Positions 58,301-61,300 of a stretch of 64,000 bases of DNA are shown here, piece by piece. Source of the stretch: Escherichia coli (GTDB lineage Bacteria > Pseudomonadota > Gammaproteobacteria > Enterobacterales > Enterobacteriaceae); NCBI RefSeq assembly GCF_013315695.1, contig NZ_CP054353.1. One strand, 5' to 3'. The position numbers are program-made. The number at the start of each line of letters is the position of its first letter. The first letter of the stretch is position 1.

Positions 58301-61300
58301 GTCAGTAATCGCAGTCAGTTTGTCACGAACCACTTCCAGCGGCTGACGCGCTACCGGACGCAGATGTTTTTTCGCGGCGTCGGCATCGAACTCAGCAAAA
58401 TCTTCGTAGAAATAACGGCAGCTCTGTGCCATCTCTTTCAGCGTCTTGCAGCGTTCGCCCAGCAGTTTCACCAGATCAGCCAGCTGCGGGCCGTTACGGG
58501 TATCGATATTTTCCTGCTCAATGTGCCACTGTAAGTGAGTAGCAACATACTCCGGCGGCAGCGCGTTAATGTAGTGATGGTTCAGCCACAGCAGCTTGTC
58601 GGTGTTGAACGCACTGGCAGATTTGCTGACGGCATTCAGAGTGAAGTATTTGATCATCTCTTCACGAGTGAAGATTTCCTGATCGCCGTGGGACCAGCCC
58701 AGACGCACCAGATAGTTCAGCAGTGCTTCTGGCAGATAACCATCATCACGATACTGCATTACGCTGACCGCCCCGTGACGTTTGGACAGTTTTTTACCGT
58801 CATCGCCGTTGATCATAGAAACGTGCGCGTAAACCGGTACCGGCGCTTTCAGGGCTTTAAGAATGTTGATCTGGCGCGGCGTGTTGTTGATATGGTCTTC
58901 GCCACGGATAACATGGGTGATTTCCATATCCCAGTCATCAACAACCACACAGAAGTTATAGGTTGGGGAACCATCGGTACGGCGAATGATCAGATCATCC
59001 AGCTCCTGGTTGCTGAACTCAATCGGGCCACGGATCTGATCGTCAAAAACAACAGAACCTTCCTGCGGGTTAGCAAAACGTACAACGCACGGTTCATCAT
59101 CAGCATGATGCTCATGGCTGTGGCGGCAGCGACCGTCATAACGCGGCTTCTCACCTTTCGCCATTTGCTCTTCGCGCAGCGCTTCCAGGCGCTCTTTAGA
59201 GCAATAGCATTTATAAGCTGTGCCCTCTTCCAGCATCTGATCGATCACCGCGTTGTAGCGATCAAAACGTTTGGTCTGGTAGTACGGACCTTCATCCCAC
59301 TCCAGGCTCAGCCAGTTCATGCCATCCATAATGGCTTCGATAGCTTCCGGCGTGGAACGCTCAAGATCGGTGTCTTCAATACGCAGCACGAACTCACCGC
59401 CGTGGTTACGTGCAAAAAGCCAGGAGTAAAGAGCAGTACGCGCGCCGCCAACGTGCAGATAGCCTGTTGGGCTTGGCGCGAAGCGAGTTTTGATTTTCAT
59501 GAAATGGCCTTACGTTTAGAAAGATGCCGACAACCGGCAAATCCTGGAAAAATTGAGTGGGCGATATTCTATCACTCCCGCCTGATTCCTCAATGTAGTT
59601 CGGGTTGCAACCTTACGCATTATTGTTTTCGTTGACAAATTGCGCAACACGGTCTGTTTTGCGATCATCTTGCTTAAATTTACGACGAACGAACAATTTC
59701 TTTAGAAAATGCGTTGACTCATTTTGAACTCTCCCTATAATGCGACTCCACACAGCGGGGGGTGATTAGCTCAGCTGGGAGAGCACCTCCCTTACAAGGA
59801 GGGGGTCGGCGGTTCGATCCCGTCATCACCCACCAACTACTTTATGTAGTCTCCGCCGTGTAGCAAGAAATTGAGAAGTGGGTGATTAGCTCAGCTGGGA
59901 GAGCACCTCCCTTACAAGGAGGGGGTCGGCGGTTCGATCCCGTCATCACCCACCACTTCGGGTCGTTAGCTCAGTTGGTAGAGCAGTTGACTTTTAATCA
60001 ATTGGTCGCAGGTTCGAATCCTGCACGACCCACCAATGTAAAAAAGCGCCCTAAAGGCGATTTTTTGCTATCTGCAATTTGCGAAATTGCCTGATGCGCT
60101 TCGCTTATCAGACCAACTATGTCCGGCAGTTCCCGTGCCTCTCATCTACTGCGCCAACGCCGCCAGCAGTTTAACCAGCGCGGGCGTCACCTGCTGCGTT
60201 TCATAAACAATATATAAGTCTGCCGGGATGCGTTCTTTGAGCGGACGGAATATGACACCTGGCCAGTTCATCTGCGCGTAACTGTCCGCTATCAATGTGA
60301 TACCAATACCCATACTGACCATGGCGAGTACCGTTTGCGGTTCATTAACTTCGCAAATAACAACCGGTGAAAATCCCACCTGCTGGCAAACTCGCTGCAA
60401 AAAATCCCAGTCAGTGTACACGGGCGGCATTGTAACGAAATACTCGTCACGTAGCGCTTCCAGCGGGACGGTGGAAAATGATGAGAGATGATGCTCTTCA
60501 GGCATCGCCACCACAAACGCCGATTCATGCAACCGTAAGCTGGTAAAACCAGTCGGTGGTTCTGTCGCCATTCGCCAGATCCCGGCATCAAGTTCGCGGC
60601 GTTCCAGCAAGGCCATTTGCATCGCGGGCATCTTTTCGCGAAACAGAACTTCAACGTTAGGATTTTCTCTAAGGAATCGCCGCATAACCGGGCGCATCCG
60701 TCCCCACATTGCCGTTCCCACAACCCCGAGTTCAATCCGCCCTGCTTCTCCCCGACCTATTTGTTCAACCCGAGCCAATACATTATTTGCATTCACCAGC
60801 AATCGACGCGATTCTTCCATCAAGATTTTGCCCGCGTGTGTCAGTACGACGCTGCGCGAATGGCGAATAAAAAGCTGCGTGCCGAGTTGATTTTCCAGCT
60901 CTTTAATATGAATACTGAGCGGAGGCTGAGACATATTTAAACGCGCTGCTGCGCGACCAAAATGCAACTCTTCCGCTACGGCAAGAAAATAACGGAGCAA
61001 CTTAAGATCTGTTCTATATACGCGTTCCATAATTAAGTGCTCCATATAAAAAAATATATCGTATTAAATTATCATGGCATAAAGTATTTCACCACCAGAT
61101 ATCCGACATACATAAACACGATGGATAATATACCCGGCAATACATTTGGAACAGGAATAGGTAATCGCACGATTGTAAACAAAGCACCAATGCCAAAACC
61201 AACGCCAGAAGAAAATAAAATATCTTTCACTAATTAACCTTTATCATAAAAGCAGCCCCAAGGAACAGAGCTGCGAATCCTTTTAATGTGTAACTGAACG

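What the first reader, a model, noticed from the sequence alone, without database searches (positions are those of the whole stretch)
59760..60035. tRNA operon has two tandem tRNA-Val(UAC) copies before tRNA-Lys, one fewer than I recall for K-12
The array downstream of the gltX-divergent promoter reads Val–Val–Lys, with identical 76-nt Val genes 44 bp apart. K-12 is described as valU-valX-valY-lysV. Loss or gain of a unit by recombination between identical repeats is the likely cause.
Basis: partly seen in the sequence, partly recalled or inferred. Interest (0 to 1): 0.25.

Follow-up and report, generated by a model that had tools for sequence, protein, structure and literature searches.

The report
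Two-copy valine tRNA array variant
This E. coli strain carries two instead of the usual three tandem valine-tRNA genes next to gltX, an ordinary and recurrent copy-number polymorphism caused by recombination between identical repeats.

Summary
The window has two identical 76-nt tRNA-Val(UAC) genes (59760-59835, 59880-59955) 44 bp apart. A CTTC spacer and tRNA-Lys(UUU) (59960-60035) follow. The array lies between gltX and xapR. K-12 MG1655 has valU-valX-valY-lysV here. The window equals K-12 minus exactly one 122-bp period (one Val gene plus the 46-bp second spacer).

Three Val genes is the ancestral state: 67 of 89 orthologous loci from enterobacterial species have three, including three Escherichia representatives with the same 44/46-bp spacers.

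Across 5,426 complete E. coli genomes, junction queries give:
- about 5,042 with three or more Val genes;
- 213 with the window's two-Val form;
- 133 with the other two-Val form, including a K-12 laboratory derivative;
- 26 with one Val gene.
Four-Val arrays also exist.

The window's near-clonal relative MSB1_4I has three Val genes. Over 6.4 kb of flank it is otherwise identical to the window. Assemblies with the same marker haplotype carry 2, 3 or 4 copies. The loss is therefore recent and independent of other two-Val lineages.

Assembly collapse cannot be excluded without reads. This is a known kind of variation and of low interest.

The parts
58085..59500 (-). gltX (glutamate--tRNA ligase), divergent from the tRNA operon
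   Evidence: 471-aa ORF. The orthologous gene is annotated gltX in K-12 and in all relatives fetched.
59714..59741 (+). valU-operon promoter, TTGACT-16 bp-TATAAT (11 of 12 consensus positions)
   Evidence: Promoter scan. The sequence is identical to K-12 upstream of valU.
59757..59762 (+). G6 run across the leader/tRNA boundary. It has one more G than K-12 and most strains. It serves as a lineage marker.
   Evidence: Alignment and comparison with 13 Escherichia loci. The variant-specific 40-mer occurs in 17 of 5,426 genomes.
59760..59835 (+). tRNA-Val(UAC) copy 1 (valU equivalent)
   Evidence: ARAGORN and Rfam RF00005 at 65.9 bits. Identical to K-12 valU.
59836..59879 (+). 44-bp spacer 1, 100% identical to the K-12 valU-valX spacer
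59880..59955 (+). tRNA-Val(UAC) copy 2, the recombinant valX/valY equivalent. The junction of the missing 122-bp unit lies somewhere within or at the edge of this gene and cannot be placed more exactly, because the repeats are identical.
   Evidence: the 122-bp gap relative to MSB1_4I is placed here.
59956..59959 (+). CTTC spacer between Val and Lys, as between valY and lysV in K-12
   Evidence: PMC4176162 gives CUUC for valY-lysV.
59960..60035 (+). tRNA-Lys(UUU) (lysV equivalent)
   Evidence: ARAGORN and Rfam at 79.2 bits.
60038..60068 (+). Rho-independent terminator hairpin of the operon. It carries a C-to-A change at 60060 that breaks one G-C pair.
   Evidence: Fold energy -12.4 kcal/mol against -19.1 for the common allele. 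The variant occurs in 15 of 5,426 genomes. The terminator's role in K-12 is described in PMC4176162.
60146..61030 (-). xapR, the downstream convergent neighbour. The 110-bp lysV-xapR spacer lacks the ~154-bp RtT-like repeat unit that K-12 has.
   Evidence: Annotation of relatives and alignment.

Best explanation
The locus is the E. coli valU tRNA operon (promoter, tandem tRNA-Val(UAC) genes, tRNA-Lys(UUU), terminator). It has lost one 122-bp repeat period, consisting of one Val gene and the 46-bp spacer 2. The loss most likely arose by misaligned pairing of the identical 76-bp Val genes, through either unequal sister-strand exchange or replication slippage. The result is leader-Val-spacer1-Val-CTTC-Lys. 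The operon should still be transcribed as one precursor about 122 nt shorter than in K-12 and processed by RNase P from the 3' end, as described for K-12. It would supply two instead of three tRNA-Val(UAC) per transcript. The anatomy, the direction of change, its recency and its recurrence are shown here. The molecular mechanism and the near-neutral fitness effect are inferred.
For: - Anatomy: the window equals K-12 minus exactly 122 bp, bounded by identical 76-bp repeats, with spacer 1 retained at 100% identity.
- Direction: 67 of 89 gltX-adjacent orthologous loci from enterobacterial species have three Val genes. All three Escherichia representatives (L033, L082, L089) have three with 44/46-bp spacers. 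Spacer 2 has diverged along with its lineage (L007, L136), so it is old.
- Allelic series in 5,426 complete genomes: spacer1-Val-spacer2 in 5,042; the window's junction in 213; leader-Val-spacer2 in 133 (verified); leader-Val-CTTC-Lys in 26 (verified); a four-Val array in MY1-8.
- Recurrence: two-Val arrays occur with the RtT unit and the K-12-like xapR allele (XB2, E2863). They also occur without it on the B2-like allele (clone D i14, strain 20). The K-12 derivative JW5437-1 also has one.
- Recency: MSB1_4I differs from the window by 5 substitutions over 48.5 kb. It shares both rare marker variants and the IS insertion, and it has three Val genes. From 57334 to 64000 the only difference is the 122-bp unit.
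- Same haplotype, different copy numbers: assemblies with the same markers and an identical XapR carry 3 (L136, L138), 4 (L137) or 2 (L139) Val genes.
- Function: the operon's transcription and processing are known in K-12 (PMC4176162). The whole transcription unit could be deleted without a complementing plasmid (PMC11480407).
Against: - No reads are available, so an assembly collapse of the repeat in the window's source cannot be excluded. The window's exact combination (both markers plus two Val) appears in none of the 5,426 complete genomes. All four genomes that share both markers show the three-Val spacing.
- The only other two-Val assembly on this haplotype (L139) is a 3.3-kb contig of a fragmented assembly. 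It has 14 mismatches to the window and CTC instead of CTTC, so it is weak support.
- The junction counts are inferred from BLAST coverage thresholds, not from per-genome tRNA counts. Some public complete assemblies may themselves contain repeat errors.
- The recombination mechanism was not tested.
Confidence: 0.8

Rival explanations
1. Assembly artefact. The strain really has three Val genes, and the assembler collapsed the array by taking a path leader-Val-spacer1-Val-Lys and dropping the 122-bp spacer-2 loop.
For: All four complete genomes that share both of the window's rare markers show the three-Val spacing; two were fetched and have three Val genes. Outside the IS element, the 122-bp unit is the only difference from MSB1_4I across 6.4 kb. 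The source genome is not in the complete-genome set: the best 8-kb match is 99.0%. A 76-bp exact repeat can confuse de Bruijn assemblers that use k below 76 (own knowledge).
Against: The 64-kb window runs continuously through an IS4 copy, an IS200/IS605 element and two identical tandem tRNA-Ala genes. That is more typical of a long-read or finished assembly, where a 122-bp unit is spanned by single reads. Real arrays of 1, 2 and 4 copies are common in complete genomes of many lineages, so a true event is not improbable. Reads of 100-150 nt already span a 76-bp repeat.
Confidence: 0.13
2. The two-Val allele was imported by homologous recombination from another lineage that already had it (for example the B2 two-Val clade), not deleted in place.
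For: Two-Val alleles circulate in about 6% of genomes. The lysV-xapR flank shows mosaic allele patterns among strains: 93-97% identity classes and 26 differences clustered at 60000-60500 relative to GF131.
Against: The window's flanks, including both rare markers 3 bp upstream and 25 bp downstream of the array, are identical to three-Val MSB1_4I. An imported tract would have to begin and end inside the roughly 300-bp array itself. An in-place deletion is simpler.
Confidence: 0.04
3. Two Val genes is the ancestral state, and K-12 and most strains gained a third by duplication.
For: None specific.
Against: Spacers 1 and 2 are unrelated sequences, so the three-Val array is not a recent duplicate of a two-Val array. 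Three Val genes is the mode across Enterobacteriaceae and Erwiniaceae and is found in the three Escherichia species representatives recovered. The window's near-clonal relatives have three.
Confidence: 0.02

Closest known systems
E. coli K-12 valU operon (valU-valX-valY-lysV, b2401-b2404)
   Same: It has the same position between gltX and xapR and an identical promoter region. The tRNA-Val(UAC) and tRNA-Lys(UUU) sequences, spacer 1 and the CTTC spacer are identical, and the terminator is of the same type.
   Different: The window has two Val genes instead of three, because spacer 2 and one Val gene are absent. It has one extra G in the leader and a C-to-A change in the terminator stem. It lacks the ~154-bp RtT-like unit and second terminator copy downstream of lysV.
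Copy-number variation of tandem tRNA genes among E. coli strains (McDonald et al. 2015, PMC4539685)
   Same: [quoted passage not shown] The present case is the same kind of variation in the valine array.
   Different: I did not find the valU array named in the main text of that paper.
tyrT operon 178-bp repeats / RtT
   Same: In both, direct repeats that include the 3' end of a tRNA gene lie downstream of a tRNA operon and vary in number. RefSeq annotates the lysV-downstream unit as 'RtT sRNA'.
   Different: The window has none of these units. This is a neighbouring polymorphism, not the finding itself.

Membership tests
E. coli valU tRNA operon (ortholog) | Located between divergent gltX and convergent xapR | tested here: met
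   ORFs, annotation of relatives and tblastn of GltX and XapR.
E. coli valU tRNA operon (ortholog) | Sigma-70 promoter and leader identical to K-12 | tested here: met
   TTGACT-16-TATAAT at 59714-59741. The alignment is identical apart from one extra G.
E. coli valU tRNA operon (ortholog) | tRNA-Val(UAC) type 1 genes followed by CTTC and tRNA-Lys(UUU) | tested here: met
   The CUUC spacer is given in PMC4176162.
E. coli valU tRNA operon (ortholog) | Three Val genes (valU, valX, valY) with 44- and 46-bp spacers | tested here: not met
   Only two Val genes and the 44-bp spacer are present. This is an allelic variant of the operon, not a different locus.
E. coli valU tRNA operon (ortholog) | Rho-independent terminator directly after lysV | tested here: met
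   A hairpin followed by a T-run lies at 60038-60068. It is weakened to -12.4 kcal/mol by the change at 60060, against -19.1 for the common allele. The scan no longer calls it on the + strand.
Tandem-repeat copy-number polymorphism by misaligned homologous pairing | The missing segment equals exactly one repeat period and is bounded by identical direct repeats | tested here: met
   The 122 bp is 76 + 46, and the Val genes are identical.
Tandem-repeat copy-number polymorphism by misaligned homologous pairing | An integer allelic series exists in the population, with both contractions and expansions | tested here: met
   Arrays of 1, 2, 3 and 4 copies.
Tandem-repeat copy-number polymorphism by misaligned homologous pairing | Independent recurrence on different haplotypes and within clones | tested here: met
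   Two-Val arrays occur on RtT-plus and RtT-minus backgrounds. A K-12 derivative has one. The window's own marker haplotype carries 2, 3 or 4 copies.
Tandem-repeat copy-number polymorphism by misaligned homologous pairing | Dependence on RecA or on replication slippage | not testable with these tools
   This requires genetics, for example deletion-rate assays in recA-plus and recA-minus strains.
Assembly collapse artefact | Excess read depth over the repeat, or reads containing the missing spacer | not testable with these tools
   No reads are available for the window's source.

The most novel reading that the evidence does not exclude
The valU array could be a fast, reversible dosage dial for tRNA-Val(UAC). 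Copy number changes between 1 and 4 within single clones and even in laboratory K-12 stocks. The particular state might be selected, for example to retune translation after other changes, instead of drifting neutrally.
Probability: 0.1. Interest if true: 0.4.

Novelty: already known. Interest (0 to 1): 0.1.

Why it matters
The finding matters little for biology. The strain most likely has one fewer of its redundant tRNA-Val(UAC) genes (four instead of K-12's five, if valT and valZ, which lie outside the window, are intact). Even deletion of the whole valUXY-lysV unit is tolerated in K-12 (PMC11480407). It has three practical uses:
- It shows that tRNA gene counts at this locus are strain-specific and can differ between near-identical isolates.
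- It shows that such differences should not be read as annotation errors without checking.
- It gives a convenient natural example of repeat-mediated contraction and expansion, with both possible two-copy products, the one-copy product and four-copy expansions all present in public genomes.

Tried and rejected
- A 60-nt spacer-2 query suggested that 22% of genomes lack spacer 2. This was an artefact. Spacer-2 alleles with one or two substitutions leave no 28-base exact word for megablast. The longer junction query corrected the figure to about 7% lacking the spacer1-Val-spacer2 junction.
- The count of 205 genomes covering at least 80% of the query mixed the Val polymorphism with the RtT-unit polymorphism and xapR allele divergence, so I did not use it.
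- The 'two-piece' hits that span an extra 76-79 bp looked like odd architectures. Inspection showed the tool had simply joined a neighbouring Val gene.
- My first outgroup script had an off-by-one error and returned zero Val genes everywhere. It was fixed.
- The exact-protein look-up of the window's InsQ/TnpB found nothing, so the source assembly could not be traced that way.
- A literature search for valU together with CFT073 found nothing.
- I did not find the window's own genome in any collection, so the assembly method is unknown.

Full report
**1. Observation**

ARAGORN finds tRNA-Val(tac) at 59760-59835 and 59880-59955 and tRNA-Lys(ttt) at 59960-60035, all on the + strand. The Rfam tRNA model confirms all three. 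The two Val genes are identical over 76 nt. They are separated by 44 bp, and CTTC precedes Lys.

gltX (58085-59500, - strand) is divergent upstream. A near-consensus promoter, TTGACT-16-TATAAT, lies at 59714-59741. xapR is convergent downstream.

K-12 MG1655 is annotated valU, valX, valY, lysV at the orthologous place.

**2. What is missing**

I aligned the window with K-12 and two other strains and extracted the spacers.
- The window keeps the 44-bp valU-valX spacer at 100% identity.
- It lacks exactly 122 bp: one 76-bp Val gene plus the 46-bp valX-valY spacer.
- The two spacers are unrelated in sequence. The three-gene array is therefore not a fresh duplication of a two-gene array.

**3. Direction of change**

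Among the 89 loci that sit next to gltX and are not truncated:
- 67 have three Val genes;
- 10 have two;
- 10 have one;
- one has four and one has five.

The E. coli representative and two other Escherichia species have three Val genes with 44/46-bp spacers. Salmonella and Citrobacter also have three. Three is therefore ancestral, and the window's state is a loss.

**4. Frequency in E. coli**

I ran junction-specific queries against 5,426 complete genomes and counted places that cover at least 80% of each query.

| Junction | Meaning | Genomes |
|---|---|---|
| spacer1-Val-spacer2 | three or more Val | 5,042 |
| spacer1-Val-CTTC-Lys | the window's two-Val form | 213 |
| leader-Val-spacer2 | the other two-Val form | 133 |
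| leader-Val-CTTC-Lys | one Val | 26 |

These sum to 5,414 of 5,426 genomes.

I verified each class by fetching annotated examples:
- one Val in TUM2826;
- two Val in strain 20, clone D i14, GF131, XB2 and E2863;
- the spacer-2 form in 2013C-4538 and in the K-12 derivative JW5437-1;
- four Val in MY1-8.

An early spacer-only query undercounted spacer 2, because diverged alleles escape megablast's 28-base word. I do not use that number.

**5. Recurrence and recency**

Two-Val arrays occur on clearly different flanking haplotypes:
- with the K-12-like xapR allele and the RtT-like unit (XB2, E2863);
- with the B2-like allele and no RtT-like unit (strain 20, clone D i14).

The window carries two rare markers. 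One is an extra G in the leader, found in 17 genomes. The other is A at 60060 in the terminator stem, found in 15 genomes. Four complete genomes have both markers, and in all four the markers are 421 bp apart against 299 bp in the window, the three-Val spacing. I fetched two of them, and both have three Val genes.

One of the four, MSB1_4I, differs from the window by only 5 substitutions over 48.5 kb. From 57334 to 64000 the only difference is the 122-bp unit.

Other public assemblies encode exactly the window's XapR and carry both markers. They have three (L136, L138), four (L137) or two (L139) Val genes.

Copy number therefore changes within a single clone. The window's loss is independent of the larger two-Val clades.

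**6. Mechanism**

What is shown: a precise one-period loss between identical direct repeats, an integer allelic series, recurrence, and recency.

What is inferred from general knowledge of repeat instability in E. coli: the loss came from misaligned pairing of the 76-bp repeats, either by unequal sister-strand exchange or by replication slippage.

The consequences for expression are also inferred, from K-12 work. There the operon is one transcript of about 438 nt. RNase P first removes the terminator and then releases pre-tRNAs from the 3' end (PMC4176162). In the window the precursor should be about 122 nt shorter and yield two Val tRNAs and one Lys tRNA.

The whole valUXY-lysV unit could be deleted in K-12 without a complementing plasmid (PMC11480407). 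Loss of one Val copy is therefore probably close to neutral.

**7. Rival explanations**

Assembly collapse is the only serious rival.
- For it: every complete genome that shares both markers shows the three-Val spacing, and the source genome is not in the complete-genome set.
- Against it: the window is continuous through IS copies and identical tandem tRNA-Ala genes. Ordinary reads span a 76-bp repeat. Real contractions and expansions are common.
- I give it about 0.13.

Import of a two-Val allele by recombination would need both endpoints inside the roughly 300-bp array, because the markers on both sides are the window's own. An ancestral two-copy state is contradicted by the outgroups.

**8. 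Comparison with what is known**

The locus is the valU operon, in an allelic form with one Val gene fewer. Strain-to-strain variation of plus or minus one copy of E. coli tRNA genes has been reported, as has a three-or-four-copy glycine tandem array (PMC4539685). RefSeq annotations of many genomes already show two Val genes here. The finding is a real but ordinary polymorphism of a known kind.

**9. Verdict**

Novelty: already known. Interest is low (0.1). The most novel reading the evidence does not exclude is that the array is a selected, fast dosage dial for tRNA-Val(UAC). I give that about 0.1.

Noticed in passing
window 60036-60145 (lysV-xapR spacer); L001 1830-2093; L008 1110-1529: There is a second copy-number polymorphism just downstream of lysV. 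K-12 and many strains carry a ~154-bp unit that RefSeq annotates as 'RtT sRNA'. The unit is flanked by a repeated lysV 3' end and a second copy of the terminator. The window has none of these units, and MY1-8 has two.
   Followed up: partly
window 60060: A C-to-A change breaks a G-C pair in the operon's terminator stem. The predicted hairpin is -12.4 kcal/mol against -19.1 for the common allele, and the scan no longer calls a + strand terminator. Fifteen complete genomes share the change, so it is a lineage variant and not a sequencing error. TUM2826 has a T at the same position.
   Followed up: partly
window 59757-59762: The G-run that spans the leader and the 5' end of the first Val gene has one extra G (six instead of five). 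Only 17 of 5,426 complete genomes share it. It lies at the RNase P cleavage site of the first tRNA. Any effect on processing was not tested.
   Followed up: partly
window 56327-57967: An IS200/IS605-family element (insQ/tnpB 56327-57535 on the - strand, plus a degraded tnpA) is inserted between yfeD and gltX. At least 9 of the complete genomes carry it here: 7 with full-length matches, plus MSB1_4I and AF3. All 13 substitutions between the window and MSB1_4I in this 8.8-kb region fall inside the element (56441-57333). That suggests gene conversion from another IS copy or a mixed-copy consensus. The exact InsQ protein is not on record.
   Followed up: partly
window about 46437-46448: The near-clonal relative MSB1_4I has an ISEc45 (IS110-like) insertion next to glk. 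The window lacks it.
   Followed up: no
L134 (NZ_CP014348.1, K-12 derivative JW5437-1) 645-922: A laboratory K-12 derivative has Val-spacer2-Val-Lys, so it has lost the valU/valX unit relative to MG1655. Other K-12-derived assemblies (J53, DOC14) appear in the same hit class. Either contraction happens on laboratory timescales or these assemblies contain repeat errors.
   Followed up: partly
L137 (UGAA01000001.1) 3996-4515; L072 (Intestinirhabdus alba): There are expanded arrays. One has four Val genes on the window's own marker haplotype, with spacer 2 duplicated. Another has five Val genes with alternating 44/41-bp spacers, in another genus.
   Followed up: no
window 55123-55313: Two tandem tRNA-Ala(GGC) genes lie on the - strand, 39 bp apart. 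They correspond to alaX/alaW and have the same count as in MSB1_4I. Nothing unusual was seen.
   Followed up: no
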